Positions 1,446-63,222 of a DNA stretch of 64,000 nucleotides are shown in pieces. A model generated the notes under the pieces. The model was not told the DNA's origin, made no database searches, and was given only the letters and a program-made list of their open reading frames with translations. Position 1 is the first letter of the stretch, and each line of letters opens with the position of its first letter. A program made the translations under genes and the position numbers. The stretch is from Octopus vulgaris (Eukaryota): contig OX597816.1 of the NCBI GenBank assembly GCA_951406725.2, positions 76,384,001-76,448,000 of the forward strand, written 5' to 3'.

Positions 1446-1867
1446 CCTAAATATATATATTCATACATACATACATGTATATATGTAATGTGTGTATATA
1501 TACATACATGTATATATGTAGTGTGTGTATATATACATACATGTATATATGAGTGTGTGTATGTACATCCGTATGCATACATACATACTTATTTACATGC
1601 ATAGATGTATATATGTATGTATACGGATGAAAATACACACACTCACACACACACTTACACATACCCATGCATGTATACAGACATCTGAAGAGAAAGTTGA
1701 CACCATTATTTTTGAAAGATTTATTTCTATAAACAAAATAATGTCATTTGATGCATTTGAATATTTAATCTAGTATTTAGTAGACATGTTTTGTGCATAA
1801 TATATTAGCATGTTTGCAGTATCAGGTAGCACCCGCTAGTGTCCACACAGGTAAAACGGAAGAATGA

Positions 1868-5394: not shown

Positions 5395-6490
5395 CTATAT
5401 GGGAAATAATGAGGAGGAGTGGGCCCAACACTGTACCTTGTGGGATTGTATTCCTTCAAACACAATATGTTGGGTTCTGTTCGTCAGGAAACACTTTATC
5501 CATTGCAACAGCTTTCCACGGACTCCATTGCTGGACAGTTTCTTCAGCAGGATTTTGTGACCCACTCTGTCAAATGCCTTGCTGAAATCAAGGTAAATGA
5601 TGTTAGTTTGGGAGCCCTCTCCTAACGCTTTTAAGATGTCATCAAAATGGTACAGAAGCTGCGACAGACAGTCCCTGCCATCACGGAAAACATTCTGGTT
5701 GGGGTTCAACAGATTTTTTTCTTCGAGGAAGTGAGTTATTCGCGATCTCATCACCCTCTCAAATACTTTAATAATATGATAAGTGAGTGAAATCGGACGG
5801 TAGTTCACTGCAAGAGATTTGTTTCCCTTTTTGAAGACTGGAACCACAGACTGGGAAAGGAAATGATCAAGAATGTAACCTGCATCAAGTGAGTTTCTCC
5901 AGAGCTCCGCTAGATGGGGTGCAATTTGATGTCGACACATCTTCAGGACAGTGGCCGAGAACTTATAAGGACCTACTGCCGAGCTGTGTTTGATCTTATC
6001 TATTTCTGTTAGGATATCAAGAGCACCAAAGACAGAGCTGTATTGTATCTGCAGTATCTCACACATGGATATTGCGTCATCAACCAGAAGACCAATAGTG
6101 GAAACAGAGTCTTTATACTTTTTTGCAAATGAAAAGAACACGTTGGGATTGAGTTATATTTTCTCAATAGCCCAACTCTCCTCAGCTTCTCTTTGACTGT
6201 TAATGGTGGTCATCATGCTCTTTTGGAGGCCGTGTTTTTTCGATTCGAGGGATGCAATGCAGTCGAGTCGGTGCATTGCTGCTGGCAGTATTTAAGTTCG
6301 TTGATTTTCTTGTTCTTTTTATTTTTCTGATAATTGCTCTTCTATTTCTAGAGATTCTGCACTTAGATTTCTATACTGATCTTAATGGAGGATGTTTTGC
6401 GCATATGTTTGTTACAGTTTCTACAAATGTCTGCCATGATGTGTTTATGTTGGAGGGTGTGTATGCGTGGGTGAAGGCCCAATCAACTTG
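5395..6490 (-). mobile_element. CR1/Jockey-group LINE reverse transcriptase fragment
   Basis: ORF 5395-6141 contains VPVFKKGNKSLAVNYRPISLT, YLDFSKAFDRV and a frameshifted PQGTVLGPLL. Confidence 0.9.
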
Positions 6491-12677: not shown

Positions 12678-12728
<51 letters not shown>

Positions 12729-12984
12729 AGATAAGGGCAGAAGAAAAATTCTAATGCCAGATATGCCGAAACAAAAATTTTTTTTAGAGATTTCTATCGG
12801 TTTGTTTCGAGACGCATAAATTTAATGGTTATCGACAATTTTTTGTTTCGGCGTATCTGGCATTAGAATTTTTCTTCTGCCCTTATCTTGTAAATTATGT
12901 ATAAATCTTACCTTTAAAGGCATTTTTTTTTATATGCTGGCCATTGATGAAATTTTTTTCCCGAAAAAAATTTTTTCCTATATC

Positions 12985-13032
<48 letters not shown>

Positions 13033-13187
13033 TACGGGCTTCTTTCAGTTTCCGTCTACCAAATCCACTCACAAGACTTTGGTCGACCCGAGGCTATAGT
13101 AGAAGACAGTTGCCCAAGGTGCCACGCAGTGGGACTGGACCGAGAACCATGAGGTTGGGAAGCAAGCTTCTTCCCACACAGTCAGGC

Positions 13188-13190
<3 letters not shown>
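12490..13190 (-). mobile_element. tRNA-derived SINE, family 1 (octopus-type, central CA/TA microsatellite), carrying a nested insertion
   Basis: Minus strand has tRNA-like A/B boxes and ccttgggcaa, with a conserved tail ...tgactgcggccatgc.ggagcaccg. Repeated many times in the window. Confidence 0.88.
12725..12990. mobile_element. Foldback remnant (PLE pseudo-LTR-like end with inverted copy) inserted in the SINE's (TA)n
   Basis: 12725-12778 is the reverse complement of ~12837-12892 (tacaagataagggcagaagaaaaattctaatgccagata...). Confidence 0.6.
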
Positions 13191-13234
<44 letters not shown>

Positions 13235-13236
<2 letters not shown>

Positions 13237-13289
13237 TACAAAGCGATCGTATCAAGTTACCGGAGTCATTCTTGTTGCTTATTTTGATT

Positions 13290-13371
<82 letters not shown>

Positions 13372-13442
13372 TACAAACGACCGTATCAAGTTACCGGAGT
13401 CATTCTTGTTGCTTATTTTGATTATATATATAAATATATAAT

Positions 13443-13501
<59 letters not shown>

Positions 13502-13550
13502 TACAAACGATCGTATCAAGTTACCGGAGTCATTCTTGTTGCTTATTTTG

Positions 13551-13647
<97 letters not shown>

Positions 13648-13694
13648 TACAAACGATCGTATCAAGTTACCGGAGTCATTCTTGTATTTTGATT
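13235..13694 (+). repeat. Composite tandem array: four ~54-bp units separated by (TA)n
   Basis: ggtacaaacgatcgtatcaagttaccggagtcattcttgttgcttattttgatt at 13235, 13370, 13500 and 13646. Confidence 0.95.
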
Positions 13695-13697
13695 ATA

Positions 13698-13747
<50 letters not shown>

Positions 13748-13933
13748 AGTAGTTGAATGAATTATCTTATTAAGGATAACCGATACCTGGGTAGCAAATT
13801 CACATCAGAAATAACACGGTTGAAGCTACGTCCCTAGGGCATAGACTACGTGTCTTCGTGCGGAAATTTGTATGTTTATTTTAAAATCATAAGTATATGA
13901 AAGAATGGAGTTGAACGACTAGTTAACAAATAT

Positions 13934-14028
13934 CCTTTATTCTCGACATATGTTTCGAAGGCTGCATATTCCTAATTCCGAAGGAATAAGGAGTACATTA
14001 TGCAGATTTCTCATCAGGAAAATCAAGG
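13934..14028 (-). ncRNA. Type-I hammerhead ribozyme (inverted pLTR copy)
   Basis: Reverse complement of 14956-15050, with TCATCAG at 14011-14017. Confidence 0.8.
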
Positions 14029-14059
14029 AACTTATGTCGACATCAAAATGCACAAAAAT

Positions 14060-14402
14060 CTCTTCTGGAACCGATGTCTACTTCTACATTGGCGCAACCT
14101 CTTCTAAATTAGCCCAAAGGATCTCCAACCATTATTCCACTTTCAGAGATAAGAGAAAGCAACACAGCACGGGGCTAAGCAAATTAGTCTGGCGTCTGAA
14201 GAACAATAACACTACGTACAAGCTCGAATGGTCCATTTTATCGGTGTCCTTCCCGTTTGATAAAGGCAGAAAATTTTGTGGCATCTGTAATTCCGAACTT
14301 TTTCATATTTTGTTCGACAAAGTCCCTTTAATAAATACAATCGTCGAAAGATCCTACAGGTGTTTACACTGGAAAAGACACACCTTTCACTCATATAAAT
14401 AG
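14060..14402 (+). pseudogene. Penelope-type GIY-YIG endonuclease fragment
   Basis: YIG motif, conserved R..H and CxxC..E. The first ~37 aa of the listed ORF derive from the inverted pLTR. Confidence 0.85.
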
Positions 14403-14955
14403 TGACTAATATAGATAACCCCTCGATTTCCCAAAACATTTTTGCTATATTTCACCCCAATAGTCAAAAAGATTTTCTTATATTCCCAATTACTACTATC
14501 CATTCTTGCGTTGCCTCTCACCTCGCCCGATTCTTTCTCCCTTTCGTTATCTACTTTCTTTTCTCTACAGTAAACATAATCGAACACACAGACACAGACC
14601 TCTCACCTCACAGCTGTCAGTTTTCTGACATCTACCCATCCACAAACACAATCACGCATTCAGACACACACATACACACATTAAGACAGTTATATACAGT
14701 CACACACACAGACACTCATTCATAAAAGAAATCATTTAAACCCACCATTCTTTTGACCTGCACTCTCTCACCTTACTATTCTTATGCCTCCCTCCTCCTA
14801 CTTCGTTTGAACCCTTGAACCTTTAGAACCTTCTAGATTCTTCTACATTCAGCCACTCTGACGTCACTTCTTATAAAGAGACACTCATTATCGCCATGGG
14901 CTCCTTGAGAGCGGTCAGCTAAAATTTTTTGTGCATTTTGATGTCGACATAAGTT

Positions 14956-15050
14956 CCTTGATTTTCCTGATGAGAAATCTGCATAATGTAATCCTTATTC
15001 CTTCGGAATTAGGAATATGCAGCCTTCGAAACATATGTCGAGAATAAAGG
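14956..15050 (+). ncRNA. Type-I hammerhead ribozyme in PLE pseudo-LTR
   Basis: Stem I ccttgattttc/gagaataaagg; CUGAUGA 14967-14973; long stem II (gaa/ttc, ctgcata/tatgcag, attcc/ggaat); GAAA 15028-15031; palindromic stem III ACAUAUGU; GUC site ending at 15039. Confidence 0.85.
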
Positions 15051-15097
15051 ATATTTGTTAACTAGTCGTTCAACTCAAATTCTTTCATATACTTATA

Positions 15098-15172
<75 letters not shown>

Positions 15173-15249: not shown

Positions 15250-17020
15250 GGAAGATTTTGGGTCATATATCTCCTTAACATAAGAGTACAAACACTTGGC
15301 ATAATTTTTATCATAATTTCTTGTGCCCCTCTTGCTGTATGATTCCACTATTCCTGTTTAATTTTCCTCAGAGCAGTCTGCACTTGCCTTTTCAGCTTTC
15401 TGTAAGTTTCGTTTGAGTTGGGGTTCAAGGACTGAGAAAGATGTGTATTGCCTCAGTTTTGTTTTTCTAAAAGTAGATCATGAATTTCTGCTGATCTATC
15501 TGAGAACCAGTCACTGGATTTATGAGATTTAAATCCCACTGACGAACTTGCAGCCTGAAATACTTTTGTTTTGAAATCTTCCTATAGATTGTTTGGGTAA
15601 AGATTGATACTTTCTATAGCATTGTGGAATCTTTGCAAGTTGTTTGATAATTTAAAGTTTGCATCATTTAAATTTTGGGGCACCTTTGGAACAGATCGTT
15701 GACTTTTAGGCATTATCGAGAAATCTATTTTTCCACGCACGAGGTCAGTTCAGCTCTTTGCCCCTCTCATGACCCGAATGCTAGAAACGTCTTTCATATC
15801 ACGTTTCCTGATCAGAATATAATCCATGAGATGCCAGTGCTTAGATCTCGGGATCATCCAGCTGGTTTTATATTTATTCTTCTGCTTAAACAGAGTGCTG
15901 ATGGCAACCAGATTATTCTCAGTACAAAACGTCAAAAGAGCTATTCCATTTTCATTGCATTTTCCAATCTCATGTCAACCTAAAGTAGGCCATCAAATAT
16001 AGTTCTTTCCAAAGTTTGCATTGAAATCTTCCAATATGACAAGCTTCTCAGAAATTGGTACTTTCCTCAATAATCGTGCTAGATCATCATAAAACTGTCC
16101 TACAGTTTCATTGGAATGGGACATTGTTGGTGCATAAATACTGACAACAGTAAGAGACCTACCTTTTTTCAGTTTAATACGGCATGACATGATCCATTCA
16201 GATATACCACTTGGAAGCTCTGCAATGGAGGATACTTATGTATTGAGAGCAAACCCAACATCAGATTCTCTACGCTGACTAGTAGGCCTCTCCAAAAGAT
16301 AGTATATCCATAAATAGGTTCAGTTGCTTGACCCTCACCAGAGAGACGAGTTTCAAAGAGTGCAACTATATCAAGGGAATATTTCTTAAGCTCACATGCA
16401 ATAAGTGCAGTACACCTTTTTGGCCTCTTGTTGAAATTATCATCAAGAAGTATGCACACATTCCAACAACTGAAATTAAAAGGATGATTATTTTTACTTT
16501 TTCTTGAAGATTGTTTGACTATAGTGCCAGGATGACGACCGGATCCAGCCTGTGATACACCGGGACACCTGTCGAGCCAGACCTGTTCCCCTGACGTTTC
16601 CAAGCCTTTTTTGCTATTTACTGAATTTGTTTGAGACATTTTAGAGTAAGTTAAAAGTGCATTTTTAGGTTTCTACCAACCAACCAATTGAATGATTTTA
16701 CTAAGATTTGGAGCACAGGAAGTACCTGCAAAGATTAATAATTTTCAGTGGGTGTAGCTTGCATTGTACTACCCCAACCTATTGGCCCAATAAGACTTTC
16801 GTCGGTGTGACATGAACATTGACAAAACCAGGAACTTCCAAGGCCTCAGGTTATATTTCGGAAATTTCCTTCTCCTAGGTACATTGCCAACCAAGATTAA
16901 AGAGCTTCTACATGCCCATGAGGTAAGTTGTCCCATTTCAGACACCGAACAGACACTTAGACACGCTATAAGGTGCTCAAATATCACTCCGGTGACCGAC
17001 GCGGAGGAGCTCATTCCTAA
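15250..17020 (-). mobile_element. RTE-clade LINE 5' part (5'UTR + APE endonuclease), decayed
   Basis: CWNVCILLD..RCTALIACELKKYSLDIVALFETRL, VSIYAPTM...FYDDL, LEDFNA and TSWMIPRSKHWHLMDYIL. Confidence 0.88.
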
Positions 17021-19554: not shown

Positions 19555-20351
19555 ATTAGAAAGCGAAGCGACCCACGTTACACGACGAAAACAGTGAAGT
19601 ATGGGGGAAAGAGTCTGTTACTTTAGGGATACATAAAAATCGATGATTCAAGTTGATTAAAATTGACGCTAATAGTGTCAAATTCCTCCAGTTGCTGAAG
19701 GACAATTTCATACCAGACTCGGAGGAGGGTGAGATTTTTCAGCATGACGGAGCTCCATGCCACAGATCGCGTGCAACACAACAGAGTCTGGCTGATGAAG
19801 GTGCTAGCGTATTGAATGATTCGGCAGCTCAGAGCGCTGCCTTAAATATCATCGAGCAAATAAGTACAGAATTAAAGAGAAGAGTTCGTCAGAAGAATCC
19901 ACGCAATCTTGAAGAGATGTGTGAGCTCAGCCACAGAGATTGGCATCTCATACCTGTGAAGATGGCGAAGGATTTCCATGCATCTCTTCTCAGGCGCATT
20001 GAAGCAATTATTTAAGCTAAGGGAAGCCACATGGAATATCAACAATGTACAGTTACTTCTTGTAATGAACATTATGTAATAAATTTTCATTATAGATATT
20101 TTTCTGTTTTAGATCAGTATATTTTGATTGGTTTATGTGAGGTGGGCGAAAAACATTTTTTGTGGTCGTCTTGCATTTTCCCCTCTCATTTAGAATGCCT
20201 ACTGCAAAATATAATGATTACGTATGGAAATTACTCCAATAGGGCCAATGTTGCATCTGTAAAAAATTCAATGCGAAACAACCACTTATAATTTGGCAGT
20301 TATTAGAAATTTACAGTAGTTTAAAGTGGTCGAAGACTATACACGGCACTG
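19555..20351 (+). mobile_element. Tc1-family transposon 3' fragment (DD34E-type catalytic region and right end)
   Basis: ORF 19653-20015 reads IFQHDGAPCH...QSAALNIIEQISTELKRRV. The fragment ends ...CACTG|TA at 20347-20353. Confidence 0.8.
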
Positions 20352-23152: not shown

Positions 23153-24152
<1,000 letters not shown>

Positions 24153-29171: not shown

Positions 29172-30438
29172 TTAGGTGGTTCCGAAAATAATGGCCGATT
29201 TCAGAAACAATTTTATTCTGGAAGAATTAACAATAGAAATACTTTGATTTAATCAAAGTATGAGTTGTGAACATCTCTGCACCTTTGCTATCGCTCAACG
29301 AGATTATTTATGCCTCGTTCATAAAAACGTATTGATTTTAATGCTAAGGAATCTTTGAAAGCTGATTCCACCTTTGGTTTGGACCTGAAAGTTTTATCAC
29401 TTAAAAACGTGTTTAAATGCTTTGAAAAATAGCAGTCAGTGGGTGAAAGATCAGGAGAATAGGGAGGATGTGGCAAAGTCTCGTATCCAAAGTCTGTGAG
29501 TTTGTGCAGCGTCTTTCTTGCAACATGTGGCTTTGCATTATCGTGGATCAGAATTGGGCCATACCGATTCACCAATGCAGATTTCATTTTCTGATAGTGA
29601 GAATGCATTTCAGCGAGTTGATTGCAGTAAACCTCTGCTATAATGCTATGGATGACTTCTAGTAGTGGACAGACCAATTGCAGACCAGCAGATAGCCACC
29701 ATAATCTTTTGCTGATGCAACTTTGGCCTTGGGAAATGTTTGGGAGACTCATCATAATCAAGTCGTTGACCTGATCGTTTACGGTTATCATAAATGATCC
29801 ACTTTTTGTCACACGTGACTATTCGGTCAAGAAAAGGATAATTGGTGTTTCGGAGAAAGAGTATCGTACATACTTCAAAACGCCGAACGTTTCGATTTTC
29901 ATTGAGCTCATGCTGTACCCATTTATCGAGATTTTCGCCTTATCTATCTTCTGCAGATTGCGTGAGACCGTTGCAACACTGATACCAAGTACCTGAGACA
30001 TTCCTCTGGCATTTTCACGTGGGATTTTTTACACCAATTACTTTCAGTTGTTCATTGTCACGACTGCATGACCGTCCTCTACCTTCTTCATTTTCAAGGC
30101 TCTCATCACCACTACGGAATTTCTGAAAACACCATCGTACTGTGCGATCACTTGTGGACTCTCTCCTCATGCTCCGTTGATATTGGTAGCAGTTTGGGAG
30201 GCATTGTACCCAACTTGAACTCATGCAAGAAAAGTTAACGAAGGTCCTTTTTTGGCATGTTCATAATTAAGGGGGCCAATGATTCAAGAATGTTTTCTGT
30301 CTGAAATAAGCAGAAAATTATTAAAGAGCATGTATCAATTATTAAGTATGTCGAAATTCACTTAAAATATAATACTATGATAAAATTGCGTTTCAAAACA
30401 CAACACTTAGAGCCACCATTATTTTCGGAACAACTTAA
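29172..30438 (-). mobile_element. Full-length decayed mariner (DD34D-type) transposon
   Basis: TIRs ttaggtggttccgaaaataatgg / ccattattttcggaacaacttaa with TA on both sides; motifs LIHDNAKPH, HPPYSPDLSPTDCYF and WCFQKFRSGDESLENEEGRGR. Confidence 0.93.
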
Positions 30439-34063: not shown

Positions 34064-34801
34064 AATCAAAAATAAGGGTGAAAAATTGGATATTAATTTA
34101 ATAATACCATCAATTTAACACCAAGTGGCTTAGCGTATAAAAACCAGGGATACAATAAAAATTTATACACAAATATAAGAGAGTGACCACTATGGTCGAC
34201 TCCTTGGAAACAAATTTTTTAGTGGCTAATACCATAGCGGATCTATTTTTAACGCAAGAGTGGACCATATAGTGGTCACTCTCTTATATTTGTGTATAAA
34301 CTTTTATTGTATCCCTGGTTTTTATGTCCCAAGCCACTTGATGTTAAATTGATGGTATTATTAAATTAATATCCAATTTTTCACCCTTATTTTTGATTTT
34401 AATTATGCTGCAGTAAATCTTTTATGCAGTATTTGTTTCCGGAAGACTTAGCGCACTTTAGCGAGGGAATTTGAATCATAACTGCGAGTATAATCGATTA
34501 AACCATACGTGTGTTTGATGTTATGTTAAAATTCAGTGTGCGGTTTAATAAATTGTATTCAAAACAAATTCTGCTGATGACTTATGGATGTTGTGTAAGT
34601 AAAATTACATAATACATTAATAGCGAAACAATTGTCCAGAGTTAATCTATATTTTTGTTATTTTTCATTTGCCCTGCTCGTTTACGTTGAATGTTGTGCT
34701 GATTCTCCTTGGAAACAATTTTTTTAGTGGCTAATACCATAGCGGATCTATTTTTAGCGCAAGAGTCACCATATAGTGGTCACTCTCTTATATTTGTGTA
34801 A
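34064..34801 (+). mobile_element. ORF-less PLE pLTR/retrozyme-like element: ~505-nt monomer (1.2 copies) plus inverted 5' segment
   Basis: 34064-34197 is inverted against 34262-34398; 34200-34292 is directly repeated at 34705-34801; contains a hammerhead; TA-rich flanks. Confidence 0.8.
34567..34643 (+). ncRNA. Type-I hammerhead ribozyme
   Basis: Stem I aattctg/cagagtt; CUGAUGA 34574-34580; GAAA 34625-34628; palindromic ACAAUUGU; GUC site. The base of stem II is imperfect. Confidence 0.75.
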
Positions 34802-38859: not shown

Positions 38860-39840
38860 CGTGTTTGGAGACCAAAGCTGGGCCCAGTAATCTTGTCAAC
38901 TGAAAAGTAAAGTTCTTGTGTTATGAAAGTTCCCAGGATCTAGTGGTTAAATTTGTGATGAACCCTCCAAAAAAGGGGCAGGAAGTAACATGATTACTCC
39001 TAATCCCCTTATTTTATTTGAGATTTCCATCTTTGTGTTTTTTGGTGTCAAATAATGTGTGTGTGTGTGTCAATTCTGTAATAAAGAACCTGATATTTCG
39101 ATGCGTTCGATTTCGCATTATTTTCCTCTCTCGATCAAGAAATGATATTTTGCTCATTCTAGAGTGTGACAGCAACTTCTGCAGTTTGGATAGAAATTGA
39201 TACTTCTGTCCATGCAGCATAACTCGTTAAACTTGCTGAGAGTATCTGAGCTTATACGTGAAAGAGAGATGATAAATAATAGGGACCTTAGAAGCGGTCC
39301 TTGAAGCACACCACTTATTACAATTGACTTGACAGTAAGGAGAGTGTTTGCAGCAACAGCTTTATTCCTAGCCTGTAAAAAGCCAAGAATTTTATACTCT
39401 GAATTTTCTCTGATACCAAGGTTCCTTAGCCTATAACCGATAATTCCATGATAATTCTTGTCAAAGGCCTTCGCAAAATCAAGGTATATGCAATCAGTGT
39501 CCATTCCCTTTAGAATATTATTAATGTTTGTATTAAGTCGCTGTTGTATTTGTGTCAGTCAACTTTGCCCGGTCCGAAATGCATGCTGTAGAACATAAAG
39601 CATTCGCTTTCCTCCAGGTGTTTGATTATTTTTTACTACAATGTTTTTTTACAATTTTTATGTGTGTGAATAAGTAAGACATGTCTATAAATTTTAACAC
39701 CAACTATGCTGCCCCTTTTGTGTGTACGTGTTATTGTTGCTCCTTCCAGTAATTCTGGAAATATGCCGGACTCTAACGACTTTTCGAATAGCAGTTTTAA
39801 TGGTTTGGTCAGACTGTGTTTACACGGTGTGTACAACCTA
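38860..39840 (-). mobile_element. CR1-group LINE RT fragment, decayed
   Basis: CIYLDFAKAFDK, SGVLQGPLLRSLLFII and PLKLLFEKSLESGIFP. Confidence 0.8.
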
Positions 39841-41589: not shown

Positions 41590-42874
41590 CAGGTTGGGGC
41601 AGAGAAGACGGACGTTTTTGAAAAATTTACAAAATCATAATTTTAGCTGCAAACAAATTTTATTGATATCAATGTGTCTGTATTGAATTAGCATTTGTCA
41701 AAATTAAGTGTGGAAAACAACATCCATCAGGTATCCGTTTTCATTGATGCATTTCTGAAGGCATTCTTGGAAGCATTGCTCTGTTGATTTGGGTGACTTC
41801 GACGCGAATAGCTTCCTTCAAATCGTCCAATGTACGGGGTTTATGCGCATACACACGTGCCTTGAAGTTTCCCCACAAGAAATTATCACACTTGGATAAA
41901 TCAGGGGACCGAGTGGGAAAGAAAAGTCAGTAAACCTGTAAACGAAGAGAGGGCGAAGAACTCCATTGATGCTCTCGCTGTGTGGGCCGACGCCCCATCA
42001 TGCTGTAACCACACACGTCGAATAGGCATACATTTTCGTCGTAATTCAGGCACAAAGTTATTTATCATTTCGATGTAACGTTCGGAGTTCTCAGCAACAG
42101 CATCTCCATTACTGTCTTAAGAAAAGTAAGGACCAATCACTGCAGCTTTTCCAGCAGAACTCCACGCAGTCACTTTTGGGATGTGCAGTGGTCTTTCGTG
42201 CAGTTCTTTTGAATTTTCAAGATCCCAGTAACGACAGTTCTGTTGATGTCATTAAGATGAAAATGAGCTTCATCACAAATTAACAAAATGAGGTTGTCAT
42301 TTGCCTCAAAAATTGCTTCCATCTCACGTGCGAAGTTAAGCCGTTGTGCATAGTCTCATGGTTTTAACTGTTGCCCAGTAACCAACTTGTACCGGTGGAA
42401 ATGCAGGTCTTCATGCAAAATACGCCCTACCGATCGATTACCGATGCCAAGTTCAGTGGAATGCTTCCTAGGAGAGCGATTCGGACTCCGTATCAAAGCT
42501 TGTCTTACACGTTCCACATTTTCCGGGGCCTCTATCGTTGGTAGCGCCCCTACCAGCCTCCTATTCATTAAAGTACATCGTAAACGATGCGCATTCACCC
42601 AAAGTAAGATTGTGCTTCGAGTGGGAACGGCCTGATTTCGGTGAATGTTGAAGTAGCGCCGAAACTTACTCTGAACTGCTGTGACAGTTTCGCTATTCTC
42701 CACGTAACTGTCGTAGGCAAACACGGGATGCTCTGTCGTCCACAGCGCCTTGGCTTCACCTGAAAAGAAAAAGAATACTAAGACACCACGGACCGAATGG
42801 TACCTGTCGAACATATGTCCCTCCCGCTGGGGCTGAGCCATTTCAAAAACATCTCTCCTCTATGCCCTACCCTG
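41590..42874 (-). mobile_element. Full-length decayed IS630/Tc1/mariner transposon (rosa/DD41D-like)
   Basis: TIRs TA|caggttggggcagagaagacggacgtttttgaaa and tttcaaaaacatctctcctctatgccctaccctg|TA; HTH ORF 42356-42841; VWLQHDGASAHT and RSPDLSKCDNFLWG. Confidence 0.88.
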
Positions 42875-59481: not shown

Positions 59482-59628
59482 ATAGCTCAATACATTGCAT
59501 CCCAGTCACATGGTTCCGGGTTCAGTATCACTGCATGGCGCCTTGGACAAGTGCTTTCTACTATGGCCTCGGGCCGACAAAAGCCTTGAGAGTGGTTTCC
59601 GTAGACGTAAACTGAAAGCAGTCCGTCG
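59482..59628 (+). mobile_element. tRNA-derived SINE, family 1 head
   Basis: cacatggttccgggttcagt...ccttggacaagtg...gaaagcagtccgtcgta. Confidence 0.8.
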
Positions 59629-59909
59629 TAGTAGATGAAACCATAGCGATTGAAGAAGGGTTTTTTTCTTTGTGTTAATTGTCCTGTACTCCATTTTTTG
59701 TTGTTTTTAAAAAAATGTTCAGTTCCTTTGGTTTGTGTCTATGTTTTCGTTTCTCTTTGTGTTCGACGTCTCTTTGGTGTCCTGTACTCATATATGCGTG
59801 TATATGTACATGTAGAGGTAGGTACGTACATATATGTTTATATATATGCATATGTTTTATTTCATTTATTAATATATATATATATAAAGAGAGAGAAAGA
59901 GAGAGAAAG

Positions 59910-60035: not shown

Positions 60036-60160
60036 TTAAAATCAAAATAAGCAACAAGGGTATCCAGAGGTAATGCAGTACGATCGTTTCAAGCTACTCC
60101 ATTTTATTGAAAGATTCAATCATTACATCAATTTAAATGTAGAGCAAACCTCAGCTGCAT
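60036..60160 (-). ncRNA. Hammerhead motif (A9 altered) plus pLTR-like 3' end
   Basis: atgcag-CUGAGGU...GAAA-CGAUCG-UA-ctgcat (60073-60160), then cttgttgcttattttgatt. Confidence 0.7.
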
Positions 60161-60775
60161 AAAGACATATAATGTAATTAAATTAAAACAGATGGACACA
60201 TTAGTATAATTTTACCTAAAATCTCCAAGAAGGTAAGAAGCTAGACAAAAAACATGCCGTCTTCACTTCAGCTTAGAAGCTACTCTATCTGTATTTAATT
60301 GACTAAAGTCAAACTGGTAAACATTTTGTGAAAGCTGAAAGTGCACACATATCGTACAAAGATTGAAATTACTGACACGTACAGAAAGAAACTCATATTT
60401 CTTTAGAGAAACATAGTTGTTCGAAAGAAGATAATGTCCTAATAAAATATTCGGGAGTCGAGGAATATGCAATTTTTTGCTGACGTCCTTTTCTTCCCCA
60501 AAATGATGAGTTTGTGAATACAATCAAAACCACAATATTATTTCATTTTCATAGTAAATTTCAAGTATTTTGTTCCAGAAATCATTTATTTTTCAAAAGC
60601 AAATAACTTGTGAAAGAAGCAAACTATCAACAAGATGTATCGGAGTAAACTATTTATCATGTGTGAGTCAGGGAGGGAATTTCAATGTCATGAATCCAAT
60701 TAACTGTCAAATTTCTCAAATCACTTCATAAACAAAGACAACCAAAACAATGTGATAAATACGTCCCCTCCACCT

Positions 60776-60867
<92 letters not shown>

Positions 60868-60869
<2 letters not shown>

Positions 60870-61100
60870 ACGATAGATCGTTAGCCACAACACACACTTG
60901 TTTTTTCTGTGTCCCTTTCTGTAGAAGAGCGTGGGCTCGAAACGTAAGAGACTTTTCTATTCCTGAGCGTTATACTAATACATCTGTTTGTTTTGTACAC
61001 CACCTGTCTTCGTATTTTGTTCTTTTCGTATATATATATATATATATGTTTCTGAAACATATGTACCGCTAAATCCTTTGCATCCTGTTTTTCTTTTGAT
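60868..61100 (+). mobile_element. Two short PLE pLTR-like fragments between (TA)n tracts, with hammerhead remnants
   Basis: CUGUAGAA-gagc-gtgg-gctc-GAAA-CG-UA at 60919-60946; GAAA-CAUAUG-UA at 61054-61065, with the fragment ending cttttgat. Confidence 0.55.
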
Positions 61101-61122
61101 AAATATACCCTATCACCTACAC

Positions 61123-61172
<50 letters not shown>

Positions 61173-62748: not shown

Positions 62749-63222
<474 letters not shown>

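What the first reader, a model, noticed from the sequence alone, without database searches (positions are those of the whole stretch)
13235..13694. Array of four near-identical 54-bp units alternating with (TA)n; each unit is the 3' half of a hammerhead plus a pLTR-like terminus
Seen: the unit ggtacAAACGATCGTAtcaagttacc...cttgttgcttattttgatt recurs four times with ~75-90-bp TA spacers. It aligns by eye to the minus strand of 60040-60090 (gAAACGATCGTActgcattacc...cttgttgcttattttgatt), where the complete hammerhead is still visible. Each unit therefore runs from the ribozyme's GAAA/stem III to the element's 3' end. The fragment at 61048-61100 is truncated at almost the same point. Established: PLE reverse transcriptases are the closest relatives of telomerase RT. 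Inference: the array may record repeated, telomerase-like re-priming on the RNA 3' end with arrest at the ribozyme fold. Plain TA-mediated tandem duplication is the alternative.
Basis: partly seen in the sequence, partly recalled or inferred. Interest (0 to 1): 0.72.

Follow-up and report, generated by a model that had tools for sequence, protein, structure and literature searches.

The report
Locally duplicated retroelement stub in microsatellite
Four near-identical 54-base stubs, each the broken tail of a common ribozyme-bearing repeat, sit between TA runs; they most likely come from ordinary local DNA duplication of one old insertion, not from telomerase-like re-copying, so the feature is probably ordinary.

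Summary
The array is in the sequence: four units (55, 54, 54, 49 bp) with TA spacers of 80, 76 and 92 bp. The unit is the 3' end of a high-copy hammerhead-bearing repeat: 1,345 contig placements in five public runs, with 3' ends mostly running into TA. None of the 1,345 covers the array's first four bases. The family reads ...GTAC-G-AAAC, so all four units share one 5' boundary and lack catalytic G12. They also share a G that is A in 99.8% of depth in the one run that reported it. Each spacer roughly equals the two outer TA flanks added together (41+50). This best fits one truncated insertion later duplicated through its TA arms (0.72). Telomerase-like re-priming is not excluded (0.07) but needs near-equal TA tracts made anew three times. 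The 'complete' hammerhead at 60 kb is degenerate. The shared truncation point with 61048 is weak evidence (toy P 0.04-0.19). I could not test the array in raw reads or look for other arrays genome-wide.

The parts
13194..13234 (.). Left (TA)n arm, 41 bp, uninterrupted
13235..13289 (+). Unit 1 (55 bp): 5 nt of stem II 3' strand, damaged GAAA, palindromic helix III, GUA cut triplet, stem I 3' strand, element 3' end; one extra G
   Evidence: family context
13290..13369 (.). TA spacer 1, 80 bp, one interruption
13370..13423 (+). Unit 2 (54 bp), one T>C in the helix III palindrome
13424..13499 (.). TA spacer 2, 76 bp, three interruptions
13500..13553 (+). Unit 3 (54 bp), equal to the array majority; the reference laid on public runs
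13554..13645 (.). TA spacer 3, 92 bp, uninterrupted
13646..13694 (+). Unit 4 (49 bp), 5-bp deletion near the 3' end
13695..13744 (.). Right (TA)n arm, about 50 bp, one interruption
60040..60157 (-). Diverged relative of the unit's family with a degenerate type I hammerhead; runs on past the unit's 3' end
61048..61125 (+). TA-flanked 3' stub of another hammerhead subfamily, starting 6 nt before GAAA; single copy
13746..15103 (+). Neighbour, not part of the array: 5'-truncated Penelope-like element of a different family, with a GIY-YIG remnant (14058-14402), a hammerhead at 14967-15039 and an inverted 177-bp copy of its end (13883-14058, 97.7%)
   Evidence: (PF01541 E 0.0013, below the curated cutoff)

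Best explanation
The array is four copies of the 3' stub of a high-copy hammerhead-bearing repeat, most likely made by local DNA-level tandem duplication of one truncated insertion through its flanking TA tracts. Step 1 (family and TA-abutting ends shown; enzyme inferred): a Penelope-type reverse transcriptase/endonuclease primed in a (TA)n tract and copied only about 54 nt of the RNA's 3' end. Step 2 (shared changes shown; timing inferred): this copy lost G12 of GAAA and gained an A>G in stem I. Step 3 (inferred): a nascent strand ending in the right TA arm re-annealed to the left arm, by slippage, template switch or unequal exchange, duplicating arm-unit-arm and giving a spacer about as long as both arms together. 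Step 4 (inferred): misalignment between repeats raised the number to four, and each copy then gathered its own changes. The array would have no ribozyme activity, because CUGANGA, the stem I 5' strand and G12 are absent.
For: Four cores between five TA arms, with no partial unit at either end. Identical 5' boundary in 4 of 4 units, while depth at 13500-13503 is 0 in all five contig runs (1,345 placements). Family loose ends before 13505 end in GTAGTACG in 161 contigs. G at 13520 is in 4 of 4 units but A in 91,357 of 91,549 summed depth in X5 and in 4 of 4 raw reads in X20. All 40 longest listed contig pieces differ from the unit by 3-7 letters. Spacers 80/76/92 against flanks 41+50; only 1 of 22 other TA tracts in the window is 76-93 bp. 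A non-PLE 33-bp unit is triplicated between TA runs at 1463-1562. Known mechanism: microhomology-mediated tandem duplication and its expansion (PMC13167724, abstract and section 10 read); microsatellite-bounded duplications in sea urchin (PMC3091723, passages read).
Against: No 1x or 2x allele was seen and the locus was not found in reads. The runs may not include the assembled individual or even its species (best word share 0.60 for the neighbouring stretch), so 'private' means absent from these runs. One search printed no substitution table, so the 13520 figure rests on X5 and four reads of X20. One mutant RNA copied four times would also give shared changes. TA lengths mutate fast, so the 41+50 match may be chance. 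In yeast, expansion beyond 2x is rare (131 of 9,149 loci; PMC13167724). The 33-bp control is itself microsatellite-like.
Confidence: 0.72

Rival explanations
1. Assembly artefact: a single TA-flanked stub was looped or over-expanded during assembly.
For: No run showed the array junction. Long TA tracts are hard to assemble (general knowledge). The source reads were not available.
Against: Three of four units carry their own change, including a 5-bp deletion, and the spacer interruptions differ. Elsewhere 16 of 22 TA tracts (794 bases) are uninterrupted, up to 103 bp, so the consensus in TA is clean. Unit divergence (3 events in 216 bp, 1.4%) is like that of the neighbour's inverted repeat (4 in 177).
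Confidence: 0.1
2. Telomerase-like re-priming: during one insertion the PLE enzyme copied the last 54 nt of one RNA four times, stalling in stem II each time, with (TA)n added between rounds.
For: PLE RTs share their nearest ancestor with telomerase RT (PMC8557442). Endonuclease-deficient PLEs get telomeric repeats added to their truncated 5' ends (PMC3846280, passage). The units form a near-star pattern. A second fragment starts one base away relative to GAAA.
Against: It needs 76-92 bp of TA made three times with no known template or enzyme, and a base-exact stop four times. The boundary is absent from 1,345 family placements. The in vitro PLE study, in the two of four parts read, reports internal initiation and AT-rich cutting but no repeat addition (PMC11167929). 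The site is internal and TA is not a telomeric repeat (animal TTAGG/TTAGGG, recalled).
Confidence: 0.07
3. Rolling-circle copy: a small circle (DNA, or a read-through RNA) made of one stub plus one TA tract was copied about four times and integrated through its TA.
For: Similar spacer lengths and near-equal ages of the units. More-than-unit copying of circular RNA has been proposed for PLEs (PMC4209133, discussion).
Against: The unit cannot self-cleave, so a ribozyme-made circle is not available. Both end units are whole. A DNA circle is hard to tell from the best explanation, and no circle was seen.
Confidence: 0.07
4. Four independent insertions of a short master element, or of stubs truncated at a hot spot, into the same TA tract.
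For: This TA neighbourhood has taken several unrelated inserts, and the family ends in TA.
Against: A master with this 5' end should be common, yet 0 of 1,345 placements show it. Four independent copies would not all carry the rare G at 13520.
Confidence: 0.02

Closest known systems
Microhomology-mediated tandem duplication and its expansion to tandem repeats (PMC13167724; abstract, opening and section 10 read)
   Same: A single-copy core between homologous arms is duplicated and expanded, leaving n cores and n+1 arms.
   Different: The arms here are 41-92-bp (TA)n tracts rather than a few bases, the core is a retroelement stub, and no lower-copy allele was observed.
Microsatellite-bounded tandem duplications, Sp185/333 cluster of sea urchin (PMC3091723; passages read)
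   Same: Duplicated segments whose edges are microsatellites.
   Different: Those are 4.5-kb gene-bearing segments bounded by GA/GAT repeats; this is a 130-146-bp period with TA.
Endonuclease-bearing Penelope-like elements with minimal type I hammerheads (PMC4209133, parts 1-2 of 4; PMC8557442, passages; PMC11167929, parts 1-2 of 4)
   Same: C11.1-GAAA, palindromic helix III, cut triplet about 35 nt from the 3' end, strong 5' truncation, (TA)n targets, a relative that runs on past the end like the optional tail.
   Different: PLE partial tandems join copies directly, not through microsatellite spacers. The units lack the 5' half of the ribozyme and G12. No RT or endonuclease ORF is linked to this subfamily in the data held.
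Telomere-associated endonuclease-deficient PLEs (Athena, Coprina; PMC3846280 and PMC5537684, passages)
   Different: Those lie at chromosome ends with telomeric repeats; here the site is internal, the repeat is TA and the four 5' ends are identical.
Metazoan non-LTR retrozymes (PMC7229834; passages read)
   Same: Short tandem repeats carrying type I hammerhead sequence.
   Different: Retrozyme monomers are 150-450 bp, each with a whole ribozyme; these units hold a damaged half and over half of the period is TA. The parent family could still be a retrozyme rather than an autonomous PLE.

Membership tests
PLE-type minimal hammerhead end (parent family) | C11.1-GAAA, palindromic helix III and NUH cut triplet | tested here: met
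   Family reads ...GTAC-G-AAAC-GATC-GTA (loose ends in 161 contigs; 60-kb relative). The array copies themselves lack G12.
PLE-type minimal hammerhead end (parent family) | CUGANGA core with paired stems I and II | tested here: inconclusive
   Only 30 nt upstream of GAAA were visible for the unit's subfamily. The 60-kb relative has 6-bp stem I and CUGA but U at 9 and 11.1.
PLE-type minimal hammerhead end (parent family) | 3' end abutting a (TA)n target, with 5' truncation | tested here: met
   Most displayed 3' loose-end rows begin with TA/AT repeats; the units are 5'-truncated relative to the family.
Autonomous endonuclease-bearing PLE | RT plus GIY-YIG ORF flanked by this repeat as pLTR | not testable with these tools
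   No genome held. The window's only clear GIY-YIG remnant belongs to a different end family.
Hammerhead ribozyme (the array units) | Both catalytic boxes (CUGANGA and GAAA) and three stems | tested here: not met
   No CUGANGA, no stem I 5' strand and no G12 in 4 of 4 units.
Non-LTR retrozyme array | 150-450-bp tandem monomers, each with an intact type I hammerhead | tested here: not met
   Period 130-146 bp, mostly TA, no intact ribozyme.
Telomeric endonuclease-deficient PLE chain | Chromosome-end location with telomeric repeats at the junctions | tested here: not met
   At least 13 kb and 50 kb of other sequence on the two sides; spacers are TA.
Homology-arm tandem duplication | n identical-boundary cores between n+1 homologous arms | tested here: met
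   Four cores, five TA arms.
Homology-arm tandem duplication | Copies share a state rare among dispersed family members | tested here: met
   Junction in 0 of 1,345 placements; G at 13520 in 0.2% of X5 depth. The runs may be other individuals or species.
Homology-arm tandem duplication | Lower-copy (1x, 2x) alleles in the population | not testable with these tools
   The three raw-read runs gave 4, 0 and 0 reads on the unit; contigs do not bridge the TA tracts.

The most novel reading that the evidence does not exclude
A Penelope-type reverse transcriptase copies the same RNA 3' end repeatedly in vivo, stalling 5-6 nt into hammerhead stem II and extending (TA)n between rounds, leaving a telomerase-like [stub-(TA)n]k footprint at internal sites. 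A milder version, that 5' truncations pile up just upstream of GAAA across families, is more likely (about 0.25) but less striking (about 0.4).
Probability: 0.07. Interest if true: 0.75.

Novelty: new member of a known kind. Interest (0 to 1): 0.17.

Why it matters
As local duplication it is a small, clean example of a minisatellite being born from a retroelement stub because the element's TA target gives every insertion two homologous arms. That predicts copy-number polymorphism at such sites and warns that repeat counts in TA-rich genomes can overstate insertion numbers. If re-priming were true instead, it would be a genomic record of repeat-addition behaviour in telomerase's closest relatives, which bears on how telomerase arose; the present evidence makes that unlikely.

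Tried and rejected
Whole-genome search: no genome is held, so other arrays and a truncation map could not be sought. Rfam at E<=1: the 150 rows shown of 182 were low-complexity miRNA/snoRNA-type matches, none a hammerhead; 32 rows were not shown. Raw reads X20-X22 (1,934 million letters each): 4, 0 and 0 reads, no test; the four reads were one diverged variant. No joints were reported in any run, but contigs cannot bridge 76-92-bp TA, so this is no test. An X5 loose-end consensus ending ...TATACAAAC (7 contigs, agreement 0.72) resembles the array junction; 0 of 126 TA runs in the window are followed by those letters, but it is 5-6 letters at the far end of a pooled consensus and lacks the GG, so I left it unresolved. 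A family upstream motif found no further copy in the window. A gapped unit pattern found nothing in metagenome or viral contigs. Rejected: HHR-cleaved RNA as the template, since the 5' boundary lies 16 nt upstream of the cut site; a rewired (permuted) hammerhead, since the unit has no CUGANGA on either strand; the array as part of the neighbouring PLE, since their ends do not align. Paper searches for a PLE re-priming array and for Neptune/TA targeting terms returned 0 papers; searches listed none that, by title or abstract start, describes such an array. The library lacks most subscription papers and I read no supplements.

Full report
Observation. The window is AT-rich and full of microsatellites; earlier scan notes call the genome octopus, which I did not test. 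The array is present: units at 13235-13289, 13370-13423, 13500-13553 and 13646-13694, spacers of 80, 76 and 92 bp, and outer TA flanks of 41 and about 50 bp. Unit 3 equals the majority; unit 1 has an extra G, unit 2 a T>C and unit 4 a 5-bp deletion. The likeness to minus-strand 60089-60040 exceeds chance (39 of 52 columns; score 60 against at most 50 in 60 shuffles). That copy's ribozyme is degenerate: stem I, CUGA, GAAA, palindromic helix III and GUA survive, but A9 and C11.1 do not. A relaxed scan that found four other hammerheads in the window missed it.

What the unit is. No genome is held, so I found public runs with the neighbouring stretch and laid unit 3 on eight of the 24 listed. Five contig runs from four coded organisms gave 224, 229, 93, 557 and 242 placements, 1,345 in all. 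Three raw-read runs gave 4, 0 and 0 reads, which is no test. In all five contig runs the main loose end before 13505 is the same family sequence, ending GTAGTACG (30+32+14+54+31 = 161 contigs, agreement 0.73-0.95), and most displayed 3' loose ends start with TA repeats. The unit is therefore the 3' end of an abundant repeat with C11.1-GAAA, a palindromic helix III and a GUA cut triplet, the features described for minimal hammerheads of Penelope-like elements (PMC4209133, parts 1-2 of 4 read). (TA)n is a reported PLE target (PMC8557442, passages). Whether the parent is an autonomous PLE end or a non-coding retrozyme could not be tested. The adjacent GIY-YIG remnant with its own hammerhead and inverted end (13746-15103) is a different family.

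What the four copies share. First, one 5' boundary, 5 nt into the stem II 3' strand. Depth at 13500-13503 is zero in all eight runs, so no placement shows GTAC directly before AAAC. Second, loss of G12. Third, G at 13520, where 91,357 of 91,549 summed depth in X5 and 4 of 4 reads in X20 have A; one search printed no substitution table, so this rests on those two runs. All 40 longest listed contig pieces differ from the unit by 3-7 letters. The four units thus descend from one template that is unusual in its family. Limits: 22 loose-end rows were not shown, a minority of TA-junction contigs could hide inside the pooled row at 13505, human-like records are dropped silently, and these runs may not be the assembled individual or species (best share 0.60).

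Mechanism. One template copied four times allows two readings: one DNA copy duplicated in place, or one RNA copied repeatedly. Three things favour DNA. (a) Geometry: four whole cores between five homologous arms is the product expected of homology-arm tandem duplication and expansion (PMC13167724, abstract, opening and section 10; microsatellite-bounded duplications in PMC3091723, passages). (b) Spacer length: all three spacers are about twice the outer flanks and close to their sum (41+50), while only 1 of 22 other TA tracts in the window is 76-93 bp (median 46.5). Duplicating arm-unit-arm once and then copying that spacer explains this; making TA anew does not. TA lengths drift, so this is suggestive only. 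(c) Economy: re-priming needs a base-exact stop four times and an unknown source of TA. The in vitro PLE study shows AT-rich cutting and internal initiation, with ribozyme cleavage dispensable, and in the two of four parts read reports no repeat addition (PMC11167929). The known analogue, endonuclease-deficient PLEs capped with telomeric repeats, works at chromosome ends (PMC3846280 and PMC5537684, passages). A weaker inference: the missing G sits in a CpG that reads TG in the 60-kb copy, so the array's CA may be the opposite-strand decay. Unit 1 would then keep the family length and units 2-4 share a lost A, implying stepwise growth. A plain G deletion plus a G insertion in unit 1 fits as well. 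A non-PLE 33-bp unit triplicated between TA runs at 1463-1562 shows that such duplication occurs here without a retroelement, though that unit is microsatellite-like.

Artefact. Not excluded, since the source reads were not available. Against it, three units and two spacers carry their own changes, whereas 16 of 22 other TA tracts (794 bases) are perfect, and the units' divergence (1.4%) resembles that of the neighbour's inverted repeat.

Arrest at the fold. Among seven GAAA-bearing fragments in the window, picked by motif scan and by eye, the nearest upstream TA lies 5, 6, 71, 168, 631, 687 and 1283 nt away. Under toy log-uniform length nulls, a pair within 1 nt has P 0.07-0.19 and two of seven within 10 nt has P 0.04-0.12, and fragments cut 3' of GAAA are not recognised at all. 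None of the displayed 5' loose-end rows in contigs is a TA run. A majority pile-up at this point is not supported for this family; a minority one remains open. The boundary lies 16 nt upstream of the cut site, so self-cleaved RNA was not the template.

Novelty. Searches for a PLE re-priming array and for Neptune/TA terms returned no papers, and searches listed none describing such an array by title or abstract start; PMC7229834 was read as passages; no supplements were read.

Verdict. Real in the assembly, correctly identified as a hammerhead-element stub, and most likely an ordinary TA-arm duplication (0.72). Artefact 0.10, re-priming 0.07, rolling circle 0.07, independent insertions 0.02. 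New member of a known kind; interest 0.17.

Noticed in passing
window 13746-15103: 5'-truncated Penelope-like element: GIY-YIG remnant with CxxC and CxH..H motifs, hammerhead at 14967-15039 (fold z -2.73) and an inverted 177-bp copy of its end that runs about 137 bp further than the direct copy before meeting TA.
   Followed up: partly
window 34574-34636 (+) and 62959-63030 (+): Two further type I hammerheads with palindromic helix III, in unrelated sequence families.
   Followed up: partly
window 60868-61028 (+): 161-bp TA-flanked stub with a very short hammerhead-like core reading CTGTAGA...GAAACGTA, directly beside the 61048 stub; with 60750-60777 this makes three element ends stacked around one TA region.
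   Followed up: no
window 12727-12893: Fold-back insert between TA tracts with arms of about 50 bp, seen by eye; MITE-like or an inverted PLE-type end.
   Followed up: no
window 13032-13193 (-): 162-bp SINE-like repeat between TA tracts, with similar copies near 23940, 53410, 58470 and 59500-59630; the tRNA-like head is recalled, not tested.
   Followed up: no
window 1463-1562: 33-bp unit triplicated between short TA runs; used as a control for generic TA-bounded duplication.
   Followed up: partly
window 5395-6153 (-), 16169-16672 (-), 19647-20015 (+), 29288-29818 (-), 39154-39558 (-), 42356-42859 (-): ORF remnants that look by eye like LINE RT or endonuclease and Tc1/mariner transposases; not searched.
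   Followed up: no
Read laying' loose ends: The family's 3' end varies over a few bases (13549-13553) before TA, and the 60-kb relative continues past it, as expected of alternative start points of reverse transcription.
   Followed up: no
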